DNA from: an uncultured Candidatus Saccharibacteria bacterium
GTDB taxonomy: Bacteria > Patescibacteriota > Minisyncoccia > Phycocordibacterales > UBA6899
Length of the DNA: 64,000 bases
Assembly: GCA_964515375.1 (NCBI GenBank)
Contig: CAZERF010000001.1
Span: 45,777-109,776, forward strand
Direction of reading: 5' to 3'
The notes under the pieces were generated by a model. That model saw nothing but the letters and a program-made list of their open reading frames with translations. It was not told where the DNA came from and made no database searches. Positions 720 to 15,124 of the stretch are shown here, one piece after another (the first letter of the stretch is position 1; each line of letters begins with the position of its first letter). The position numbers were made by a program, and so were the translations under genes.

Positions 720-1068
720 TGATGCGCACTGTATCAGGCGACCGCGTTTGACTGTTATTGGTCGAATGAGGAAAGTCCGAACTCTCACCCTGTTCAAGGG
801 TCAAAAGGGTAGCGGGTAACGCCCGTCGCGGGTGACCGTAGAGGTGCGAGCAGTGACGCCGATGTCGAAAGACTAGGGTCCCACGGGTTTCCGCGGGATA
901 ATCTCGTCGGAAGGCGAGGGTGAAACGGCTAAATCCTTACCCGAGTGCAAGGCCGTGCCGGAATATCCGGAGTGCCGCTCGAACGACGGAGTGATCCGCC
1001 GTCCAGATAAATGGTCGCCCCTCATGTTTCATGAGGACAGAATTCGGCTTATCGATACAGTGCAAAAG
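720..1068 (+). ncRNA. rnpB: RNase P RNA (bacterial type A-like)
   Basis: Universally conserved GAGGAAAGTCCG is at ~768-779. AGGGTAGCGGGTAACGCC resembles the P4/CR-II region. GGTGAAACGGC is present. The 3' motif ACAGAATTCGGCTTATCG is at ~1037-1054 (E. coli ACAGAACCCGGCTTATCG). A P1 helix forms between GCACTGTATC (725-734) and GATACAGTGC (1054-1063). The exact ends are approximate. Confidence 0.7.
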
Positions 1069-5491: not shown

Positions 5492-7306
5492 ATGACCGAA
5501 CCTATGGACGCACGACATATTCGAAATTTCAGCATTATCGCGCATATCGATCACGGCAAGTCAACGCTGGCCGACCGCATGCTTGAACTCACGCAAACGA
5601 TTGAGAAGCGCAAAATGCACGAGCAAGTGCTCGATTCGATGGAGCTCGAGCGGGAGCGTGGGATTACGATCAAGATGCAGCCCGTCCGCATGTCACATCG
5701 TCACAATGGCGAGGAATATCTTATCAACCTCATCGACACACCGGGGCACATTGATTTTTCGTATGAAGTTTCGCGCGCGCTTCAGGCCGTCGAGGGAACC
5801 CTTCTTTTGGTTGACGCGACACAGGGTGTCCAGGCGCAGACGCTTACTACACTCCAAATGGCTCGCGATCACGGACTTACGATCATTCCCGTCCTCTCAA
5901 AGATCGATTCTCCGCTGGCGCGCACCGAAGAAGTACGCGATGAGGTGGTGCTTCTTCTCGGGGTCAGACCGGAGGAAGTGCTTTTGGTGTCCGGTCGGAC
6001 AGGTGTCGGTGTTCCCGAACTCCTTACCGCGATCATTGAGCGTATTCCGCCTCCCGAGGCGGAGTACGAAGGGCGACCGGGAGCTCGAGCGCTCATTTTT
6101 GATTTCGCGTATTCAAATCACCGTGGAGTGATCCTTTATGTCCGTGTTTTGGATGGGACAATAAAAAAGGGAGCCGAACTATTTTTTACCGCCGCAAGAG
6201 AGCGATTCTTTGGAATAGAGACCGGGTATTTTTCTCCGGGAGAAGTTGAGAAGCCGGAATTATCCGCGGGAGAGATCGGATATATCGTGACGGGGATCAA
6301 ACGTCCCGGCGTTGCGGGTGTTGGTGATACCGTCACGCTGTTCAAAGATCAACTCCCCGCGCTTCCTGGGTATCAAAAACCTCGCCCTGTCGTTTGGGCA
6401 TCTGTTTTTCCCGAGAGCCAGGACGACCTCGCATTGTTGCGGCAAGCATTAGAACGTCTTCAGTTGTCAGACTCGTCTCTTTCTTTCGATGAAGAGTCTT
6501 CGGGAAATCTTGGCCGCGGATTTCGTTGCGGTTTTCTCGGAATGCTTCATCTTGAGATCATTACCGAGCGTCTCAAGAGAGAATTCGGTCTTGAGTTGAT
6601 CGTTACAACGCCGACCATCACCTACGAAGTGACACAGGCACGGACAAAAAAGACTGAGATTATCTATTCCCCGGCGCTTTTCCCTGATGACGGACTTTTA
6701 AGTGCGGTGCGTGAGCCGTGGATCGAGGGGGCGATCATCACGCCGCCCGAGTATATGGGCTCGATCACGCAGCTACTTTTTGATCATGAGGCTGAGACGG
6801 GCGATACCGATATTTTCGGAGACAATCGCTTTAAGGTTGTTTTTCGCATGCCTCTTCGTGAACTGATGCGTGGTTTCTTTGATAAGTTAAAGAGTGTTTC
6901 CTCGGGATTCGCTTCGCTTTCTTATGAGATCGAAGGGTATCGCGATGCCGATGTTGTACGCCTCGATGTACTTGTCGGAGGGGAAGTGGTTCCGGCCTTC
7001 ACTCGTGTTGTTTCGAAACGGAGAGTCGCCGAGGAAGCGGAGACGGCCGTTGAGAAGCTCTATAAGACACTCCCGAGACAAATGATCGTCATCAAGATCC
7101 AAGGGAAGGCATTGGGAAGGATCATTGCCTCACGCTCTCTTTCGGCACTCAAGAAAGACGTGACCGGATATCTCTATGGTGGAGATATTACGCGCAAGAT
7201 GAAACTTCGCGAGAAGCAGAAAAAGGGTAAGAAAAAGATGCAGGAGATCGGAAAGGTCAACATCCCGCCTGAAGTATATGTGAAGATGATCCGAGCCGAT
7301 GCGTAG
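5492..7306 (+). CDS. lepA: Elongation factor 4 (LepA)
   Basis: IRNFSIIAHIDHGKSTLADRMLE G-domain and DTPGHIDF motifs are present. The length (604 aa) and the C-terminal LepA-specific domain fit. Confidence 0.95.
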   Translation: MTEPMDARHIRNFSIIAHIDHGKSTLADRMLELTQTIEKRKMHEQVLDSMELERERGITIKMQPVRMSHRHNGEEYLINLIDTPGHIDFSYEVSRALQAVEGTLLLVDATQGVQAQTLTTLQMARDHGLTIIPVLSKIDSPLARTEEVRDEVVLLLGVRPEEVLLVSGRTGVGVPELLTAIIERIPPPEAEYEGRPGARALIFDFAYSNHRGVILYVRVLDGTIKKGAELFFTAARERFFGIETGYFSPGEVEKPELSAGEIGYIVTGIKRPGVAGVGDTVTLFKDQLPALPGYQKPRPVVWASVFPESQDDLALLRQALERLQLSDSSLSFDEESSGNLGRGFRCGFLGMLHLEIITERLKREFGLELIVTTPTITYEVTQARTKKTEIIYSPALFPDDGLLSAVREPWIEGAIITPPEYMGSITQLLFDHEAETGDTDIFGDNRFKVVFRMPLRELMRGFFDKLKSVSSGFASLSYEIEGYRDADVVRLDVLVGGEVVPAFTRVVSKRRVAEEAETAVEKLYKTLPRQMIVIKIQGKALGRIIASRSLSALKKDVTGYLYGGDITRKMKLREKQKKGKKKMQEIGKVNIPPEVYVKMIRADA

Positions 7307-7489
7307 TCGCGAAGACTAGGCGAAGATCGGAAGATAGAGCAATATCATGCTCGCCGCGACAAGGAGTGCGATTCCTGTCCATATCACATTAAAGATCTTT
7401 TTGTGCTTCTTATTTTTGAGGAAAAACATGGTAAATGGATGCCGCAGACATGTTTTGTCGACGGTTATGGCGTGTAGTATACTACAGCT

Positions 7490-9611: not shown

Positions 9612-9647
9612 AAAAGGTTCTTGTGCAAACAAGAACCTTTTGTTTTG
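9612..9647 (+). terminator. Rho-independent terminator downstream of the glutaredoxin-like gene
   Basis: Hairpin AAGGTTCTTG-tgcaaa-CAAGAACCTT followed by TTGTTTTG. Confidence 0.6.
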
Positions 9648-9656
9648 TACTACATC

Positions 9657-9729
9657 GGTACGGCGGTGATGGTGGTTCCTTTGAGGAATCGAACCATGAT
9701 GAGATGTGAATGTTATTTTTGCTCCCGTA
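9657..9729 (+). repeat. Direct repeat copy 1 (73 bp), followed by a degenerate tRNA-like sequence up to ~9783
   Basis: It is identical to 9866-9938. The copy ends in GCTCCCGTA, the first 9 nt of the tRNA-Arg gene. The downstream 9730-9783 retains the GCTCC-GTCCTGA anticodon-arm-like and GGGAGCC acceptor-like segments but is otherwise diverged. Confidence 0.8.
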
Positions 9730-9865
9730 TGAAGTGGATAGTGGAGCTCCGTCCTGAGGTGAGGTGCGGCGTTGGGAGCCCATTCTGATGGGAGCCGCAC
9801 CGCAAGACCTTTTGAGATATTTTGTGAACAATGTGATGCAAAATATCCAAAAGGTGTACTGCGCC

Positions 9866-9938
9866 GGTACGGCGGTGATGGTGGTTCCTTTGAGGAATCG
9901 AACCATGATGAGATGTGAATGTTATTTTTGCTCCCGTA
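9866..9938 (+). repeat. Direct repeat copy 2 (73 bp), overlapping the 5' end of tRNA-Arg
   Basis: Exact copy of 9657-9729. Confidence 0.8.
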
Positions 9939-10001
9939 GTTCAATGGATAGAACAGCTCCGTCCTAAGGAGTTGATGGTGGTTCGATTCCTCCCGGGAGC
10001 A
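9930..10001 (+). tRNA. tRNA-Arg (anticodon CCT)
   Basis: Hand-folded. The acceptor stem is GCTCCCG/CGGGAGC. The D arm is GTTC-AATGGATA-GAAC. The anticodon stem is GCTCC/GGAGT with loop GTCCTAA. The T arm GGTGG-TTCGATT-CCTCC has one U-U mismatch. No CCA is encoded. Confidence 0.65.
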
Positions 10002-11515
10002 CAAAACAAGACTTCTGACGAAGTCAACGAGCGCGGCGAAGCCGCGCGAGAAAAAGAAAAAGGAGAAATACGCCGTCGCTCCGCGACGAAATGGCTGGGC
10101 GAGGACACGGAAAAGTGGGCGGCTTTGTCACGAACTGCATGGTTCGTTCCAATTTTTTGGACGAAGTCGGCAATTTCGGAGAAATTGTCAGACGAGGACA
10201 AAAAAGTGGCTTGTTTCGTATCTTTTACCCACTCCCGCAATGGTTCGATCCAAGTATTTCCCCGACGTTCACAATCTTTCTTTTTCTCGTTCAAAGTTGC
10301 GAGAGAGCGCATGGTAGCATCCTTCTTTTTCAGATAAATCTCTTTGGGTATGTCTCCATCCAAGTATGTTGAAACGAGTTTGTCCATGCGCTCCTCGTCC
10401 GCTTTGATTTTTTCGGAAAGATTGCGAACCTCGCTCCCTGAAACGGAAGTAGCTTCTTGCTCCCATGTCTCAACTTGCTCCAACATCCAATCGGTATAGC
10501 GATCAGGGAGCGAGATTGTTTGAAGCCGTACTTGCAACTGCTCTGCGAGGTTTCGCTCTTGCACGTACCCTTGCGAGCAAGTGCCGTGCTTTTTGGTACA
10601 GCGATAGTAGCGATAGATACCACCATTGCCTTTGGCGTGTTGCGCCGTGAACATGCCACCGCACTCCCCACAGCGAAACAAGCCAAGAAACGGAAAGTCA
10701 TGCCTGTTCCTTCGCTTCGGCGCACGCGCCTTGCTCGCAAGAACTTTTTGCACGGCTTCAAACAATGTCGGTGAAATAATTGGTTCAAATGTGCCATCAA
10801 ACCATTCACCATTGTGGCGAACAAAACCGAGATATGCTCGATTGCTCAAAAGGTGCCTGACGGCACATTTGGCAAGTGGCTTTCCTTTCGAACTGGTAAC
10901 GCCTAAATCCGCCAAAAACTGCGACAAACTAACAAGACCATGCGTGCCTTTGGCATATTCCTCAAAAGCGCAAGCAACAATCTTTGAATTAGTCGGATGA
11001 GGTTCGATGTTTCTCGTTTTCTGATTGTTCACATACCCAAACGGCGCTTTGGTGAGCCATTCGCCACGGCGCAGTTTTTGGCGGATGCCTCTTTTCACAT
11101 TCTGTACCAAATTGTCCGAGTAGTATTTAGATTGCCCAAAAGCCACTTGCAACATAAAGAGCCCTTGCGGAGTGGGTTCAAACCAAAAGGTCGGAAAGCG
11201 CAAAGACACAATACGCTCGGTATCCACCGCATAGATGACGCGGCCTCCATCAATACTATTTCTAGCCAGACGGTCGGGGTGCCATGCGAGTATCCCCGAA
11301 GCTTCTCCCGTTTCAATGCACGTCATCATCTCATTAAAAATAGGACGACCGGGTGTCTTTGCGCTTTTCGACTCTTGAAACTCCGACAGAATTTCAAGAT
11401 TTTCTTTACGTGCAAATTCATGTAGTTCAAACAACTGCGCTTCTATACTCATGACTTGTTTATCGTCATCTTCGGTGCTTTTTCGAGCGTAAAGAAAATA
11501 TTTTGGTTTGATCAT
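9941..11515 (-). CDS. Large serine recombinase (resolvase/invertase N-terminal domain + recombinase domain + zinc ribbon)
   Basis: The N-terminus YARKSTEDDDKQ carries the catalytic Ser in the resolvase motif. DRLARN and a recombinase domain follow. The zinc ribbon is CGECGG...YYRC. The C-terminal ~60 codons of the ORF are encoded by IR1-left and end inside the tRNA-Arg gene. The true stop may therefore differ. Confidence 0.85.
   Translation of the reverse strand: MIKPKYFLYARKSTEDDDKQVMSIEAQLFELHEFARKENLEILSEFQESKSAKTPGRPIFNEMMTCIETGEASGILAWHPDRLARNSIDGGRVIYAVDTERIVSLRFPTFWFEPTPQGLFMLQVAFGQSKYYSDNLVQNVKRGIRQKLRRGEWLTKAPFGYVNNQKTRNIEPHPTNSKIVACAFEEYAKGTHGLVSLSQFLADLGVTSSKGKPLAKCAVRHLLSNRAYLGFVRHNGEWFDGTFEPIISPTLFEAVQKVLASKARAPKRRNRHDFPFLGLFRCGECGGMFTAQHAKGNGGIYRYYRCTKKHGTCSQGYVQERNLAEQLQVRLQTISLPDRYTDWMLEQVETWEQEATSVSGSEVRNLSEKIKADEERMDKLVSTYLDGDIPKEIYLKKKDATMRSLATLNEKKKDCERRGNTWIEPLREWVKDTKQATFLSSSDNFSEIADFVQKIGTNHAVRDKAAHFSVSSPSHFVAERRRISPFSFSRAASPRSLTSSEVLFCAPGRNRTTINSLGRSCSIH
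9999..10129 (+). repeat. Inverted repeat IR1, left copy (131 bp); it starts inside the 3' end of tRNA-Arg
   Basis: Its reverse complement is identical to 11567-11697 (checked base by base at both ends). Confidence 0.85.
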
Positions 11516-11566
11516 AATTTTTTCCCATTAAAAAGATTGATAAAAATCATGCGATACGAAACAAGA

Positions 11567-11697
11567 GACAAAGCCGCCCACTTTTCCGTGTCCTCGCCCA
11601 GCCATTTCGTCGCGGAGCGACGGCGTATTTCTCCTTTTTCTTTTTCTCGCGCGGCTTCGCCGCGCTCGTTGACTTCGTCAGAAGTCTTGTTTTGTGC
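11567..11697 (+). repeat. Inverted repeat IR1, right copy
   Basis: Reverse complement of 9999-10129. Confidence 0.85.
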
Positions 11698-11935
11698 AGA
11701 AATACTGACCTTTGCTCGAACCCATTTCGAGAAAGGACAATGATCGTGCCGCGCGGAGCGCGTGGTGATGCGAACGCGAAGCGTACGCATTCGGAAATGT
11801 CTGCGCGCCTCGCTGCCTCGCCAGCTCGGCTCCCAAAACCAAAGAAATATCCTTACAATCATTTTTTCGGTGGAGGGGTGTGGGGAGGAGCCGACAGAAA
11901 AAGGAAAGGATATTTCTTTGGTTTGGGATCGCCGC
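11695..11935 (+). repeat. Inverted repeat IR2, left copy (241 bp), abutting IR1-right
   Basis: Its reverse complement matches 13643-13884 with a single mismatch. Confidence 0.85.
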
Positions 11936-12028
11936 AATGAGTTCTTAAAAATCATTTCCCCACCATTACCCTAGTATATTATACTATAATAGTCGTGTAT
12001 AATGTAATAGTTGGGTATAATTGTGGAT

Positions 12029-12232
12029 ATGAATGAGTCCGCAATGCTCGGCAACAATTTGAAAAGGATTCGCGAAGCGAAAAATATGTCTCAAGGTGAC
12101 ATCATGCGCTCTTTGGGATGTAGTCGTAGTTACATAAGTAATATAGAGAACGGAAAAACTAATCCAACACTTTCAACTATCGCTAAGTTGGCAAAAGCGG
12201 TTGGTGTTCCACTTAATAAGTTATTGCAATAA
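12029..12232 (+). CDS. XRE-family helix-turn-helix transcriptional regulator
   Basis: MNESAMLGNNLKRIREAKNMSQGDIMRSLGCSRSYISNIENGKTNP is a canonical HTH_3 motif. It lies in an AT-rich segment. The TTG at 12011 is an alternative start. Confidence 0.8.
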   Translation: MNESAMLGNNLKRIREAKNMSQGDIMRSLGCSRSYISNIENGKTNPTLSTIAKLAKAVGVPLNKLLQ

Positions 12233-12236
12233 GTTT

Positions 12237-13199
12237 ATGAAATCGAAAGCCATCATTATAATTTTTATACTTTTTGTTCTGTTATTTTTAGGTGGCAGAT
12301 ACATTTACTATGGTTCTGTAACGCGCGATTGTATTTATACTGAAAACAAGTTACCCGTACCTGGAGCACTCGAAGCCGGTACTGTAGTTGTGGCAAAGGA
12401 TGCCTACTTAGCTATCGGCATAGACAAAGAGCATGAATGCTTGGACTCGTTTGGAAAAATAGACAGGGAGATTGTAGGACCAGACACAATCAACAACCTT
12501 ACGATAGGAAGGCAATATTTTACTAACAGAGGACTATCTGTACAGACACTTAAAAAGGGAAATGAGTTCAAAGTTGTTGATATTATCTCCGTCACTAAAC
12601 ACGGTCTGTCAACGATAGATTCTGGGCCAGGGCCTATCTATTATCTTATTTTGCAAAGTAGCGACGGGTTACTTTACCAAATTGCAACAGTATCACTCGG
12701 ACTTAATAAACAAGACTTGTTTCTTGCTTTTGTTGACGGTACCCAGAATTACGATCCATCCGCTCCCCAGCTATTAAGTCCAGACAGTTTTAACGAGACT
12801 TATAGTTATGAAGGAGCAGATTCACTCACGTATACTGGAAAACTAACTCAATTAACAGACGATTATCTTCAAAGTACAGAACCACAGTGGAAAAAGTTAG
12901 CAGACCGACTTGAGCGTGGTGAAAAATTTCTCATCATGGTAGATATTGACTTACGAGATGATGCTTTCAGACCGATTATCCTCTCTGAAAACTCAGAAGC
13001 AAGATACAATCAAGTAGCTCAAATACAAGACGAGTTTCTTAAAAAGATACCAAATAATATTGTCCTGAACGGACTTGAAAAAAACCAATCTTGGCCATAT
13101 ATCTCTATGGAGGCAAATCTAGATTTATTGAATTACTTGGTTGATCATCAGGTAGAGTTAAAAATTAAGTCAATATCTGAACTACAAAAAGTGCAGTAA
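12237..13199 (+). CDS. Hypothetical membrane-anchored protein (AT-rich cargo gene)
   Basis: The ATG is 4 nt after the XRE stop. The N-terminal TM anchor is KAIIIIFILFVLLFLGG, followed by a ~290-aa soluble domain. No family was recognised. GC content is far below the flanks. Confidence 0.55.
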   Translation: MKSKAIIIIFILFVLLFLGGRYIYYGSVTRDCIYTENKLPVPGALEAGTVVVAKDAYLAIGIDKEHECLDSFGKIDREIVGPDTINNLTIGRQYFTNRGLSVQTLKKGNEFKVVDIISVTKHGLSTIDSGPGPIYYLILQSSDGLLYQIATVSLGLNKQDLFLAFVDGTQNYDPSAPQLLSPDSFNETYSYEGADSLTYTGKLTQLTDDYLQSTEPQWKKLADRLERGEKFLIMVDIDLRDDAFRPIILSENSEARYNQVAQIQDEFLKKIPNNIVLNGLEKNQSWPYISMEANLDLLNYLVDHQVELKIKSISELQKVQ

Positions 13200-13642
13200 A
13201 AACGTCCGTCTCGCTATCCCCGCGGCAAGCCGACGGGGCATTACGCGGGCGGAATCGGGCGTTTTTGCTAGTTAAGGAATCCCCTCCGGTGATACTTTGT
13301 TTAATGTCGCATTCATCCTCGAGGCAAGCCCACGAGGCATTCTGCGACGTTCTAGTAAAAGACATTCGAGTGTCACGAAAAAGATTGGTTTGTATAGCAG
13401 GTTTTTGAAATCGTAATACACTCAACCGAAGCCACTAAGCTCACACACGGAAGCACCGCAGCAGCTCGCGCGAGCGGAGCGAGCGAGCTGTGCGGAGGTG
13501 CTGGAGTGTAGTGAGCGAACGTTAGAATCACCACGCAGGTTCGCTACGGGAGAGCGCCTCGCACGCCGCGAGTACGGAGAAAAGCGAAGTGGAAGACTCT
13601 CAAATAAAATGGGAACTGAAACAAAGCTTTTTGGAGGACAAA

Positions 13643-13884
13643 GCGGCGATCCCAAAACAAAGAAATATCCTTTCCTTTTTCTGTCGGCTCCTCCCCACAC
13701 CCCTCCACCGAAAAAATGATTGTAAGGATATTTCTTTGGTTTTGGGAGCCGAGCTGGCGAGGCAGCGAGGCGCGCAGACATTTCCGAATGCGTACGCTTC
13801 GCGTTCGCATCACCACGCGCTCCGCGCGGCACGATCATTGTCCTTTCTCGAAATGGGTTCGAGCAAAGGTCAGTATTTCTGCAC
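13643..13884 (+). repeat. Inverted repeat IR2, right copy
   Basis: Reverse complement of 11695-11935. Confidence 0.85.
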
Positions 13885-13918
13885 TTTTTCTTTCTTTCCC
13901 TCATGCTATAATAAACAG

Positions 13919-14216
13919 CATGGCGATATCAGAAGAAAGCGCGCATGACAAGCTCGACGAGGTGCTTGAGCTCGTTCGTGAGAACAACAAAATCCTCCGC
14001 ACAATGCATCGCCGTATGTTGTGGAGTCAGGTCTTTACTTTTGTATACTGGATCATCATTCTCGGCGTTGCGGGTTGGGCGTATTACTATTTCCAGCCGT
14101 ATGTTGAGCGTTATGTGAACACGTATCAGGCGATCGTCGGCAATCTTGAGAATCTTGATAGTCAAGGGACGGATTTCCCCAGTGAGCTCAAGTCGCTTCT
14201 TGATAAAGTAAGGTAA
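13919..14216 (+). CDS. Small membrane protein, hypothetical
   Basis: The ATG is at 13919, just past IR2-right (MAISEESAHDKLDEVLELV...). There is one TM helix, VFTFVYWIIILGVAGWAYYYF. The longer track ORF from 13716 would read through the repeat. Confidence 0.5.
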
Positions 14217-14241
14217 ATAAGGTATCCTTGAGGACATCGCA

Positions 14242-14317
14242 GTTGCGATATGCCGAGGTAGCTCAGTTGGTAGAGCGCTCGCCTGAAGAGCGATAGGTCA
14301 CCAGTTCGACCCTGGTC
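14242..14317 (+). tRNA. tRNA-Phe (anticodon GAA)
   Basis: Hand-folded. The acceptor stem is GCCGAGG/CCTCGGC. The D arm is GCTC-AGTTGGTA-GAGC. The anticodon loop is CTGAAGA. The T arm is ACCAG-TTCGACC-CTGGT. CCA is encoded. Confidence 0.85.
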
Positions 14318-14320
14318 CTC

Positions 14321-14505
14321 GGCACCACAATAGGCTCAGTTGGTGAGCAAAGTCTGCTTCTGAAAGCAGACACCAGGTTTGCTTTTTGGACAAGGTGTCC
14401 GCCACCGCGGACGCCAGCCACCACTCGTCTTCTTCGCCTTGCTGCGAAGTCGATCACCAATAGAGCGCATGCCTTTCGAGCGACGGGTCACCAGTTCGAC
14501 CCTGG
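14321..14505 (+). repeat. Scrambled tRNA-Phe-derived sequence: D-arm copy + 110-nt insert with three hairpins + copy of the tRNA 3' two-thirds (14451-14505)
   Basis: TAGGCTCAGTTGGTGAGC matches the Phe D arm with one inserted G. 14451-14505 (TAGAGCGCATGCCTTTCGAGCGACGGGTCACCAGTTCGACCCTGGTCCTCGGCAC) matches the tRNA-Phe 3' portion except in the anticodon arm. No 5' acceptor strand is present. Confidence 0.7.
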
Positions 14506-14512
14506 TCCTCGG

Positions 14513-14541
14513 CACTGTCAAATCAAAACCGCCCATGAATG
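14513..14541. terminator. Bidirectional rho-independent terminator
   Basis: Perfect palindrome AAAACCGCCCAT-GA-ATGGGCGGTTTT, lying between the tRNA cluster and the convergent Hsp20 gene. Confidence 0.65.
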
Positions 14542-14572
14542 GGCGGTTTTGATTATAGGAAAGAAGGGTTTG

Positions 14573-15124
14573 TTACACTGATTTCACCTTCAATTCCTGA
14601 ATGCGTTTGGTGTCAAATTTTGAGAGTCGAATGATGAGCAGTCCGTATCTTTCGACGGCGTCAGCCTTGTCTGGATCGACTTCATGCGGAAGTTCGATCT
14701 CGCGACGGAACGGACCCCAATAGAGTTCTCGAATGGCATAATTTTCATCAGGGATTCCTTCCGGCTCATTGCGCCTACCCTCTATGGTGATCGTTTTTCG
14801 TGTGATCGAAATATGAAGATTCTCGGGCATGACCCCCGCGATCATACACTGAACGATGATCTCGTTGTCTACCTCATAGAGGTCAACTGCCATTCCGGGA
14901 ACTTCGCTCTCGTCTTCTTCCTCAGGATCCTCGTCCGACTCTTCTTTTGCCTCGTCTTCTTTGTGCTCATCTTGAGACAAAAGGAGCTCCTCATCGTGTT
15001 CGGTGAGTTCCTTTTCAGGCTGGGAAATTTTGCGTTCTTGGTATTCCTCCTCTTCAAGCTCGTCCGGTACAAAGGGGCGTGACCCTGTCAGATGTTCGAG
15101 AAATGATGGTTTGCGTCCTTTCAT
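14573..15124 (-). CDS. Hsp20/alpha-crystallin family small heat-shock protein with an acidic N-terminal extension
   Basis: There is an alpha-crystallin domain (VDLYEVDNEIIVQCMIAGVMPENLHISI...AIRELYWGPFRREIELP). The N-terminus is rich in E/D. Confidence 0.8.
   Translation of the reverse strand: MKGRKPSFLEHLTGSRPFVPDELEEEEYQERKISQPEKELTEHDEELLLSQDEHKEDEAKEESDEDPEEEDESEVPGMAVDLYEVDNEIIVQCMIAGVMPENLHISITRKTITIEGRRNEPEGIPDENYAIRELYWGPFRREIELPHEVDPDKADAVERYGLLIIRLSKFDTKRIQELKVKSV

What the first reader, a model, noticed from the sequence alone, without database searches (positions are those of the whole stretch)
14242..14541. tRNA-Phe followed by a permuted, hairpin-rich tRNA-Phe-derived sequence
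Directly after a canonical tRNA-Phe lies a copy of its D arm, then a 110-nt insert with three good hairpins (GTCTGCT/AGCAGAC, GTCCGC/GCGGAC, CTTCGC/GCGAAG), then a near-copy of the tRNA 3' two-thirds ending in the same CCTCGGCAC acceptor strand. There is no 5' acceptor strand. This may be an attR-type scar of the adjacent module, a tRNA-derived ncRNA, or a disrupted second tRNA whose anticodon loop now reads TTC.
Basis: seen in the sequence. Interest (0 to 1): 0.55.

Follow-up and report, generated by a model that had tools for sequence, protein, structure and literature searches.

The report
tRNA-Phe fragment split by new element
Behind a normal tRNA-Phe gene lies a truncated second copy of that tRNA, interrupted by a 116-base folded element that belongs to a previously undescribed, conserved family scattered through Patescibacteria genomes, so the hairpin-rich insert is the interesting part and the tRNA-like pieces are only its duplicated landing site.

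Summary
An intact tRNA-Phe(GAA) at 14252-14327 is followed by a 13-14-nt D-arm copy, a 116-nt hairpin-rich insert (14345-14460), a 55-nt copy of tRNA positions 20-74, and a terminator.

It is not permuted, not an intron-containing tRNA, and not a scar of the neighbouring serine-recombinase island. Two close relatives lack that island but keep the structure. Another relative has the empty site, with tRNA-Phe running straight into the same terminator.

The insert belongs to a dispersed family, with 16 copies in 15 loci:
- downstream copies of tRNA-Phe and tRNA-Val split in the D-loop;
- a downstream copy of tRNA-Thr split in the anticodon loop;
- in AT-rich Patescibacteria, positions abutting the stop codon of protein genes.

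All sit at T^A(A/G) sites, co-oriented with the upstream gene. One relative carries two tandem units.

The shared fold is a long hairpin with an NCCAGG internal loop plus a three-way junction. Eight of 17 junction pairs show compensatory changes (0 of 500 shuffles reach this). There is no match in Rfam 15, phages, plasmids or the searched literature.

Best reading: a small, probably mobile, structured element inserted into tRNA-Phe, with a target duplication preserving an intact gene. The transcribed strand, function and mobilisation mechanism remain unresolved.

The parts
14252..14327 (+). Intact tRNA-Phe(GAA) with encoded CCA. This is copy 1, the working gene.
   Evidence: ARAGORN. Rfam tRNA at 68.1 bits. 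Identical in L038, L039 and L043.
14328..14344 (+). A short filler (CAA) followed by a copy of tRNA positions 8-20 (TAGgCTCAGTTGGT, one extra G). This is the left target flank of the insert. There is no 5' acceptor strand.
   Evidence: Exact 11-nt repeat D4. The same 13-nt left flank occurs in L039, L043 (Phe) and L065 (Val). The analogous 13 nt, GCATCTCCATGGT, occurs in L158 (Thr).
14345..14460 (.). The 116-nt structured element, a member of the newly recognised family. The functional strand is unresolved.
   Evidence: Covariance model R1 scores 105.9 bits, E = 4e-25, on 14372-14462. There are 16 family copies in 15 loci. No Rfam family matches.
14345..14384 (.). P1, a long hairpin. Lower stem GAGCAAA/TTTGCTT (14345-14351 with 14378-14384). 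Variable upper hairpin 14352-14371. Conserved 6-nt internal loop ACCAGG at 14372-14377.
   Evidence: Single-sequence folds. The lower stem covaries between members: AAGCCAG/CTGGCTT, AAGCCTG/CAGGCTT, AAGAAAA/TTTTCTT, AAGATA/TATCTT. The upper hairpin is entirely different in L039 and L043 but still paired.
14386..14460 (.). The three-way junction. Closing helix Pc is TTGG 14386-14389 with CCAA 14457-14460. P2 is GTCCGC 14397-14402, loop CACC, GCGGAC 14407-14412. P3 is 14425-14432 with 14446-14453.
   Evidence: RNAalifold predicts it independently. On 16 sequences 98.2% of cells pair. All 4 Pc pairs and 4 of 7 P3 pairs show double changes. 0 of 500 shuffles reach the observed values, and slid controls are near zero.
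14461..14515 (+). Copy of tRNA-Phe positions 20-74 (copy 2): the displaced ancestral 3' part, now a decaying fragment. The anticodon loop reads CTTTCGA and the anticodon stem is broken.
   Evidence: Repeat D1 is 87% identical with the last 30 nt exact. In L043 the homologous piece is a perfect copy with GAA and CCA, joined to the same trailer and terminator as the empty site in L038.
14521..14554 (.). Ancestral intrinsic terminator of tRNA-Phe. It is a bidirectional hairpin that also ends the convergent HSP20 gene at 14573-15124 (-).
   Evidence: A 16-bp perfect inverted repeat with flanking A and T runs. It is homologous to the terminator directly after tRNA-Phe in L038.

Best explanation
The locus is a composite. 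A roughly 190-nt block has been added to an ordinary 'tRNA-Phe then terminator' locus. The block consists of a duplicated tRNA segment and a 116-nt member of a conserved family of structured elements in Patescibacteria. That element has a long hairpin with an NCCAGG internal loop and a three-way junction whose GUCCGC-CACC-GCGGAC hairpin is identical in every copy found, although the copies were found by searching for that hairpin.

Shown:
- The element sits at a T^A(A/G) site in the D-loop of a 5'-truncated tRNA-Phe copy.
- The intact tRNA lies upstream of it.
- The downstream 55-nt piece with its terminator is the original tRNA 3' end.
- The same element occurs at other tRNAs and at the ends of protein genes in other lineages, always co-oriented with the upstream gene.
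- It can occur in tandem.
- Its helices covary.

Inferred: it is a small, protein-less, probably non-autonomous mobile element. Its folded RNA (co-transcribed with the host gene) or folded single strand is what selection maintains. Insertion into an essential single-copy tRNA survives only because a target duplication leaves an intact gene copy. That duplication runs from 13 nt upstream of the insertion point to just past the tRNA's 3' end. The orphaned tRNA pieces have no function of their own. They decay, notably in the anticodon arm, and are sometimes re-homogenised by gene conversion with copy 1.
For: Empty versus filled site:
- L038 (HSP20 87% identical) has tRNA-Phe followed directly by the terminator.
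- L043 has the insert, with copy 2 perfectly identical to the tRNA and joined to the L038-type trailer and terminator.

Independence from the recombinase island: L039 and L043 lack the island.

Tandem units: two abut in L040 at ...CTCCAAT|AAGCAAAG....

Other contexts: tRNA-Val D-loop (L065), tRNA-Thr anticodon loop (L158), and positions after protein genes such as rplL, clpP and a secA-like gene (L084, L054, L103 and others). In at least 7 of 9 protein-gene cases the element overlaps or abuts the stop codon.

Structure: RNAalifold predicts a three-way junction with 8 of 17 compensatory pairs. 98.2% of cells pair, 0 of 500 shuffles reach the observed values, and slid controls give nothing. P1 covaries in both its lower and upper stems.

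Divergence of copy 2: GAA in L043, but TTC, TTT and CTC elsewhere, and a broken T arm in L039.

No known family: Rfam 15 at E <= 10 and 0.1, phages and plasmids, and a literature search for the conserved motif sequence.
Against: - No transposase, integrase or reverse transcriptase is linked to the element.
- There are no terminal inverted repeats and no fixed-length target duplication.
- Copy number is low: one copy in this 64-kb window and none in 630 kb of other Patescibacteria loci. That would also fit a single-copy RNA gene.
- The structure [tRNA][filler][13 nt][element][tRNA 3' part] is not what any standard transposition mechanism produces. How the duplication arises is not explained.
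- The functional strand is unresolved. In the junction, the consensus alignment shows five non-canonical cells, all A.C on the window + strand, and a sixth C.A seen by eye in the apical P3 hairpin of L064; all would be G.U on the - strand. The consensus fold is more stable on the - strand in 16 of 16 sequences.
- Against that, P1 has two G.U pairs on the + strand, a possible loop contact has six, and genomic context favours the + strand.
- P2 invariance is partly a search artefact, because all members were found with an 18-mer from P2.
Confidence: 0.62

Rival explanations
1. The element is an ordinary, immobile small-RNA gene, possibly read from the window minus strand. On that strand the three-way junction would come first and P1 would serve as its own intrinsic terminator. 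It would simply lie in different neighbourhoods in different lineages, and the tRNA duplications would be unrelated local rearrangements.
For: - On the opposite strand of AT-rich members, the upper P1 hairpin is directly followed by UUUUCUU(A), a canonical terminator layout.
- In the three-way junction every unpaired cell, five in the consensus alignment plus one C.A seen by eye in the apical P3 hairpin of L064, is A.C on the + strand, which is G.U on the - strand.
- The consensus fold is lower in energy on the - strand in 16 of 16 sequences.
- There is one copy per contig.
- Sequence conservation is strong across AT-rich and GC-rich hosts.
Against: - No promoter-like motif sits at a consistent distance on the - strand (read by eye).
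- In GC-rich members, including this window, the supposed U-tract is CUGGCUUA.
- The lower P1 stem covaries as a helix rather than being kept as a U-tract.
- Very close relatives show presence/absence polymorphism at the same site.
- Tandem doubling occurs.
- Junctions at T^A(A/G) are precise, and the element always abuts the 3' end of a co-oriented gene.
Confidence: 0.2
2. The whole thing is a decayed attachment-site remnant, a CIME-like leftover of an integrase-mobilised island that once sat in tRNA-Phe. The insert would be meaningless residual island DNA.
For: - Direct repeats of a tRNA 3' part are the classic signature of integration into tRNA genes (established knowledge; see bioRxiv 10.1101/2022.07.05.498093).
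- This locus is a hotspot. Other small inserts bounded by tRNA-Phe 3'-end copies occur in L004, L006 and L044.
- A serine-recombinase island sits 350 nt upstream.
Against: - The insert is conserved with compensatory base changes. It recurs at unrelated tRNAs and at the ends of protein genes in distant lineages, without any island.
- The recombinase island is inserted at tRNA-Arg and is absent from L039 and L043.
- The repeat starts in the D-loop, and the insert carries a 13-nt left target flank, which an att crossover does not predict.
Confidence: 0.1
3. Copy 2 is a functional RNA in its own right. It could be an intron-containing or split tRNA that is spliced or assembled, or a tRNA-like regulatory RNA built on the tRNA-Phe scaffold.
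For: - The D stem, T arm and 3' acceptor strand are retained, and the last 30 nt are exact.
- The region lies between the tRNA promoter and a terminator.
- Patescibacteria are rich in tRNA introns (PMC13011429).
Against: - There is no 5' acceptor strand in any of the four Phe-locus relatives, nor in the Val and Thr cases.
- ARAGORN and Rfam make no tRNA or group I intron call.
- The anticodon differs between relatives and its stem is broken. The T arm is destroyed in L039.
- The element occurs without any tRNA parts in 9 loci.
Confidence: 0.04

Closest known systems
tRNA gene fragments left by integrating mobile elements (attL/attR direct repeats; CIME-type remnants)
   Same: An intact tRNA is followed by a direct repeat of its 3' part. 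The locus is a recurrent insertion hotspot. The fragment is non-functional and is not called as a tRNA.
   Different: Only 135 nt lie between the repeats, with no integrase. The repeat begins in the D-loop (in the anticodon loop for tRNA-Thr). A 13-nt copy of the left target flank precedes the insert. The insert itself is a conserved structured element that is also found away from tRNAs.
E. coli tyrT operon RtT repeats (Rfam RF00391; recalled from established literature)
   Same: A tRNA gene is followed by repeat units of about 180 nt, each containing a copy of the tRNA 3' end. The units are co-transcribed with the tRNA and can be tandem.
   Different: No sequence or Rfam similarity. RtT units are not found at protein-gene ends or at other tRNAs, and they lack this three-way-junction fold.
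Group I introns in Patescibacteria tRNA genes (Nakagawa et al. 2026, PMC13011429)
   Same: A structured, protein-less insertion in a tRNA loop. It is in the sense orientation, follows a U, and occurs in the same phylum.
   Different: The element is 116-145 nt, too small for a group I intron, and gets no group I intron hit. The interrupted tRNA copy lacks its 5' exon part, so splicing cannot restore a tRNA. The element also sits after stop codons.
Miniature non-autonomous insertion elements (MITEs; IS200/IS605-derived PATEs with hairpin ends)
   Same: Small, non-coding and hairpin-rich, with defined ends. It inserts at a short target motif, shows presence/absence polymorphism, and can insert twice in tandem at the same site.
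   Different: No terminal inverted repeats and no fixed target duplication. Copy number is very low. There is a long-range closing helix and a three-way junction with covariation. No cognate transposase has been identified.

Membership tests
Canonical tRNA (for the second copy, 14331-14515) | A complete cloverleaf, including a 7-bp acceptor stem formed by the 5' and 3' strands | tested here: not met
   There is no 5' acceptor strand. ARAGORN and Rfam RF00005 call only 14252-14327, even at E <= 10.
Canonical tRNA (for the second copy, 14331-14515) | A paired anticodon stem and an anticodon conserved among orthologues | tested here: not met
   The stem CATGC/GCGAC has 2 mismatches. The anticodon position reads TTC, TTT, CTC or GAA in four relatives.
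Intron-containing tRNA (group I intron) | Both exons present, and the intron recognisable as group I | tested here: not met
   The 5' exon is incomplete, covering positions 8-20 only. There is no RF00028 hit at E <= 10. The insert is 116 nt.
Permuted or split tRNA gene | The 3' half encoded upstream of the 5' half, or the halves at separate loci with complementary leaders | tested here: not met
   The order is collinear: positions 8-20, then the insert, then positions 20-74. No 5' strand lies downstream.
Integrase att-site scar of the adjacent serine-recombinase island | The repeats bound the island, or co-occur with it | tested here: not met
   The island at 10003-13884 is bounded by GCAC at the tRNA-Arg 3' end. 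L039 and L043 lack it but have the tRNA-Phe structure.
Generic tRNA-gene fragment from integration of a mobile element | A direct repeat of the tRNA 3' portion next to an intact tRNA | tested here: met
   A 55-nt repeat, 87% identical with the last 30 nt exact. The empty site is seen in L038.
Generic tRNA-gene fragment from integration of a mobile element | An element with a recombinase between the repeats, or evidence that one was once there | tested here: not met
   Only 135 non-coding nt lie between the repeats in the three relatives where the whole interval is assembled, the window, L039 and L043; L040 is cut inside a unit.
MITE / IS-derived miniature element | Terminal inverted repeats and a fixed-length target-site duplication | tested here: not met
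   The ends AAGC.. and ..CCAAT are not inverted repeats. Flanking repeats range from about 4 and 13 nt (L145) to more than 55 nt at the tRNAs.
MITE / IS-derived miniature element | Multiple dispersed copies per genome | tested here: inconclusive
   There is 1 copy in this 64-kb window and 0 in 630 kb from about 35 other Patescibacteria genomes. No complete genome could be scanned.
Any Rfam 15 RNA family (including T-box, SRP, 6S, riboswitches, self-cleaving ribozymes, RtT) | A covariance-model match | tested here: not met
   There is no relevant hit on either strand in the window region at E <= 10, or in 11 member loci at E <= 0.1.
Structured RNA (generic) | Helices supported by compensatory substitutions beyond controls | tested here: met
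   8 of 17 pairs show double changes, across 35 cells. 0 of 500 shuffles reach this, and slid controls give 0-2. P1 stems also covary.
Intrinsic terminator (for P1 on the + strand) | A GC-rich hairpin immediately followed by a U-tract | tested here: not met
   The consensus scan reported no terminator-like site anywhere in 13850-14700, missing even the hairpin at 14521-14554, so it is weak evidence. By eye, the 6-nt ACCAGG loop separates the upper P1 hairpin from the T-rich strand.

The most novel reading that the evidence does not exclude
The insert represents a new class of protein-less, structured mobile element of Patescibacteria. Its fold (RNA or single-stranded DNA) would itself direct insertion at U^AAG or U^AGAG sites, at the 3' ends of genes and in tRNA loops. 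This could work through ribozyme-like or guide-like chemistry, or by recruiting a host enzyme. The insertion mechanism would generate long, variable target duplications that regenerate the interrupted essential gene.
Probability: 0.25. Interest if true: 0.85.

Novelty: new variant of a known kind. Interest (0 to 1): 0.62.

Why it matters
Patescibacteria have tiny genomes with few recognisable mobile elements and few known non-coding RNAs. A conserved, covarying element of about 120-145 nt that appears at tRNA loops and exactly at the stop codons of housekeeping genes is one of two things. It is either an unrecognised kind of mobile element that needs no protein of its own, or an unrecognised RNA gene with an unusual relationship to the 3' ends of other genes. 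Either would add a new RNA family to a phylum where such families are scarce.

It would also explain a class of odd 'tRNA fragments' that confuse tRNA annotation. The finding provides a covariance model and clear filled and empty alleles, which make the question directly testable.

Tried and rejected
- **Assembly artefact.** Rejected. Independent Logan, ENA and NCBI assemblies show the same sequence or architecture.
- **Scar of the serine-recombinase island.** Rejected.
- **D-arm copy pairing with the insert tail as the closing stem** (13-bp inverted repeat). Rejected as the conserved helix. In tRNA-Val (L065) the tail is CGAA, which pairs with an internal TTCG, and the internal helix covaries in all members.
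- **Coding potential.** A GTG...TAG 22-codon frame exists in the window and L039, but it stops after 7-8 codons in AT-rich members (read).
- **P1 as the terminator of tRNA-Phe on the + strand.** Not supported (and the bulge position).
- **SRP RNA (shares ACCAGG), T-box (UGGN on the opposite strand), purine-riboswitch-like junction, hammerhead core.** These were resemblances recalled from memory. None is supported by Rfam scans of either strand.
- **Viral origin.** The one viral hit, L042, is a chance match inside a high-GC phage ORF.
- **Phages and plasmids.** No match.
- **Literature search.** Neither the motif sequence nor Patescibacteria structured RNAs returned a description of this element.
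- **Strand assignment** by G.U versus A.C counts, energies and context. The evidence conflicts and was left open.
- **A possible bulge-to-J2/3 tertiary contact.** Only two consistently complementary positions, so not established.
- **A single transposition model** (fixed target duplication, circle integration, retroposition) for the [13 nt][element][tRNA 3' part] layout. None fits cleanly. Retro-mobility is also disfavoured because group II introns are reported absent from the phylum (PMC13011429).

Full report
**What is there**

The window comes from a Patescibacteria genome close to Candidatus Lloydbacteria. Its ValRS is 73-68% identical to MAGs of that group.

ARAGORN and Rfam both find a single tRNA-Phe(GAA), at 14252-14327 and 14252-14324 (68 bits).
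- an exact 11-nt copy of the D-arm 5' part (14334-14344);
- a 116-nt insert with three hairpins (14345-14460);
- a 55-nt copy of tRNA positions 20-74 (14461-14515), 87% identical with the last 30 nt exact and no chance expectation;
- a perfect 16-bp terminator hairpin (14521-14554), which also ends the convergent HSP20 gene.

The second copy has no 5' acceptor strand, and neither tool calls it as a tRNA, even at E <= 10. The insert folds significantly better than shuffles, with z = -3.8 alone and -4.4 with flanks. Two independent Logan assemblies contain 14385-14572 identically, so the sequence is real.

**It is not a scar of the neighbouring module**

Between tRNA-Arg (9930-10002) and the small membrane-protein gene upstream of tRNA-Phe lies a 3.9-kb island (10003-13884). 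It carries a large serine recombinase, an HTH protein and long inverted repeats.

Syntenic relatives show the ancestral order ValRS, PrsW, HSP20, tRNA-Phe, small protein, tRNA-Arg, tRNA-Gly. Two close relatives, L039 and L043 (HSP20 86% and small protein 92% identical respectively), lack the island: tRNA-Arg runs straight into the small-protein gene. Both still carry the full tRNA-Phe, D-arm copy, insert and 3' copy architecture. The two features are therefore independent.

**Empty and filled sites**

L038 (HSP20 87% identical) has tRNA-Phe followed directly by CACCAAGAC and the AAAACCGCCCAT... terminator.

In L043 the second copy is a perfect copy of tRNA positions 20-76. It includes the CTGAAGA anticodon loop and CCA, and it is joined to exactly that trailer and terminator. 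So the downstream 3' piece plus terminator is the original gene end. About 190 nt has been added relative to the empty site: the tRNA 3' part, a short filler, 13 nt of tRNA positions 8-20, and the 116-nt unit.

In the window, L039 and L040, the orphaned copy has diverged:
- The anticodon position reads TTC, TTT and CTC respectively.
- The anticodon stem is broken.
- The T arm is destroyed in L039.
- The 3' 30 nt are still identical to copy 1 in the window and L040.

I read this as decay punctuated by gene conversion. That is an inference.

L040 carries at least two units in direct tandem, joined as ...CTCCAAT|AAGCAAAG.... Both Logan contigs stop at 14385, which is the boundary between the two domains of the unit. 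This hints at copy-number or allele heterogeneity in those samples (also an inference).

**The insert is a member of a dispersed family**

Between the window/L040 type and the L039/L043 type, the first hairpin (P1) differs at about half of its positions yet keeps the same shape, with five fully compensatory pair changes. The remaining roughly 80 nt differ at only about one position in ten.

I scanned public metagenome contigs for the invariant 18-mer GTGTCCGCCACCGCGGAC. I then searched with a covariance model (R1). Together these recovered 16 copies in 15 loci.

The contexts differ:
- **L065:** tRNA-Val(TAC) is followed by AATTTAAT, TAGCTCAGTTGGT, the unit, and the tRNA-Val 3' part from the D-loop onward.
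- **L158:** tRNA-Thr(GGT) is followed by its trailer, GCATCTCCATGGT, the unit, and the tRNA-Thr 3' half from the anticodon loop onward, plus the same trailer.
- **Nine loci from AT-rich Patescibacteria:** no tRNA is involved. The unit abuts the end of a co-oriented protein gene.

For the protein-gene loci, an rplL gene precedes the unit in L084 and a secA-like gene in L103. In L054 the last clpP codons form the 5' strand of P1. The stop codon TAA usually provides the T of the unit's TAAG start. A strong terminator usually follows.

In all cases the junctions are T^A(A/G)... on the left and ...(A/T)^TA(A/G) on the right. The tandem junction in L040 is what a second insertion into the regenerated T^AGAGC site would give.

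The window holds a single copy in 64 kb, and 630 kb from about 35 other Patescibacteria genomes holds none.

**Structure**

RNAalifold, with no guidance, predicts a three-way junction:
- a 4-bp closing helix between the linker after P1 and the 3' tail (window TTGG 14386-14389 with CCAA 14457-14460);
- P2 (GTCCGC, loop CACC, GCGGAC);
- P3.

On 16 sequences:
- 98.2% of cells form standard pairs.
- All four closing-helix pairs covary: TTGG/CCAA, TTCG/CGAA, TCGT/ACGA, ACGG/CCGT, ACGT/ACGT.
- Four of seven P3 pairs covary.
- None of 500 column shuffles reaches the observed values, and sliding the partner columns abolishes pairing.

P2 never varies, but all members were found through it, so that says little.

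AT-rich members have an extra apical hairpin in P3 that also covaries: AGAAG/CTTCT, AGCTG/CAGCT, AACTG/CAGTT.

P1 is a long hairpin. Its lower stem covaries (AAGAAAA/TTTTCTT, AAGCCAG/CTGGCTT, AAGCCTG/CAGGCTT, GAGCAAA/TTTGCTT, AAGATA/TATCTT). Its apical part is free to vary. It also has a conserved 6-nt internal loop, NCCAGG.

The 13-bp helix between the D-arm copy and the tail that the raw sequence suggests is therefore not the conserved closing helix. It is specific to tRNAs whose D-loop happens to contain TTGG.

**Which strand?**

This is unresolved.

Evidence for the window minus strand:
- In the junction, the consensus alignment shows five non-canonical cells, all A.C on the + strand, and a sixth C.A seen by eye in the apical P3 hairpin of L064; all would be G.U on the - strand. 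No + strand G.U occurs there.
- The consensus structure is more stable on the - strand in 16 of 16 sequences.
- In AT-rich members the - strand reads as junction, linker, hairpin, UUUUCUU, which is the layout of an sRNA with its own terminator.

Evidence for the plus strand:
- The element always abuts the 3' end of a co-oriented gene or tRNA, while right-hand neighbours have mixed orientation.
- No promoter-like motif lies at a fixed distance on the - strand.
- The P1 lower stem is conserved as a helix, not as a U-tract.
- P1 contains two + strand G.U pairs.
- A possible contact between the GG of the loop and two pyrimidines after P2 has six + strand G.U pairs.

**What it is not**

- No Rfam 15 family matches on either strand, in the window or in 11 member loci.
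- There is no match in phage or plasmid collections.
- The one viral-contig hit is a chance match.
- The 22-codon GTG...TAG frame in the window is not conserved.
- A literature search found group I introns in Patescibacteria tRNA genes, at position 35/36 (PMC13011429). That paper also reports group II introns absent from the phylum. Our unit is far too small for a group I intron, has no group I hit, and interrupts only 5'-truncated copies.
- Work on tRNA gene fragments generated by mobile-element integration (bioRxiv 10.1101/2022.07.05.498093) covers the flanks but not the insert.
- The conserved 18-mer occurs in no searchable paper.

**Interpretation**

I hold the following with high confidence:
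- The feature is an intact tRNA-Phe plus a truncated, non-functional second copy.
- That copy is split by a member of a conserved structured-element family.
- The tRNA-like pieces are duplicated target DNA.

I hold the following with moderate confidence: the element is, or recently was, mobile. The grounds are presence/absence among close relatives, precise ends at a short target motif, tandem double insertion, varied host sites, and high sequence similarity across hosts of very different base composition.

How it moves is unknown. It encodes nothing. It has no inverted termini. Its flanking duplications range from about 4 and 13 nt (L145) to more than 55 nt.

In all three tRNA contexts a 13-nt copy of the left target flank precedes the unit. 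No standard mechanism I considered explains this. The layout can be described as a tandem duplication of the segment running from -13 to just past the tRNA end, with the unit sitting inside the second copy. Selection for an intact essential tRNA probably filters which events are seen.

The main rival is that the element is an ordinary single-copy sRNA gene, possibly on the minus strand. The limited sequence available here does not exclude this.

**Verdict**

The real content of the finding is the insert: a candidate new family of structured, apparently mobile elements in Patescibacteria, supported by covariation and absent from Rfam.

Noticed in passing
window 10003-13884: A 3.9-kb island inserted at the 3' end of tRNA-Arg, with GCAC at both junctions. 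It is absent from L039 and L043. It carries a large serine recombinase (9941..11515, -), an HTH_3 protein (12032-12232) and a 332-aa ORF. Its centre (11567-11950) is the reverse complement of its right end joined to its left end (13628-13884 plus 9999-10129, 97-100% identical). That is an inverted copy of a circle junction, which suggests recombinase-mediated inversion or a dimeric insertion, or possibly an assembly problem.
   Followed up: partly
window 9646-10002; L043 2880-3252; L044 2600-2870: tRNA-Arg(CCT) is preceded by a duplicate of its own upstream 75 nt plus tRNA positions 1-40. The duplicate is separated from the gene by a conserved insert of about 95 nt containing the hairpin GGTGCGGC...GCCGCACC. 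This mirrors the tRNA-Phe case but on the 5' side, and it is conserved in relatives as distant as 63% identity in the neighbouring protein.
   Followed up: no
L004 ~12020-12070 (-), L006 ~7270-7410 (-), L044 3895-4040, L065 (- strand, downstream of the second tRNA-Val copy): A second family of small inserts (about 150-170 nt) behind the tRNA-Phe or tRNA-Val terminator. They begin with an acceptor-5'-strand-like GCYGAGG or GGCGATAG. They share GGGTTGAAAG.. and GAGTCGGGGTCGCRAGYACTTA motifs. They end with a copy of the tRNA from the T-loop to the 3' end, plus a second terminator. Related motifs also recur between tRNA-Arg and the small-protein gene in L044.
   Followed up: no
L044 3630-3790; L038 (- strand) upstream of tRNA-Phe: Partial duplications on the 5' side of tRNA-Phe. 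L044 has three tandem 73-nt copies of the promoter region plus tRNA positions 1-12. L038 has a GCCGAGGT copy 79 nt upstream. Both sides of the tRNA-Phe locus are rearrangement hotspots in this lineage.
   Followed up: no
L001 and L002 contig ends = window 14385: Two independent Logan assemblies both terminate exactly at the boundary between P1 and the three-way junction. This fits a repeat, such as tandem units as in L040, or allele heterogeneity in P1 within those populations.
   Followed up: no
window 14372-14377 and family alignment A3 columns 5-6 / 43-44: The GG of the conserved ACCAGG loop is complementary to two pyrimidines just 3' of P2 in nearly every member (5:44 pairs in 14 of 15; 6:43 in 15 of 15 as GC 8, GU 6, AU 1). 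This may be a tertiary contact. The loop also resembles a tRNA NCCA end, and its complement resembles a T-box UGGN. Neither resemblance was supported by any model.
   Followed up: partly
window 726-1067: The bacterial RNase P RNA scores only 128 bits against the class A model (gathering threshold 100). This fits a divergent Patescibacteria genome. Eleven tRNA genes lie in the 64-kb window.
   Followed up: no
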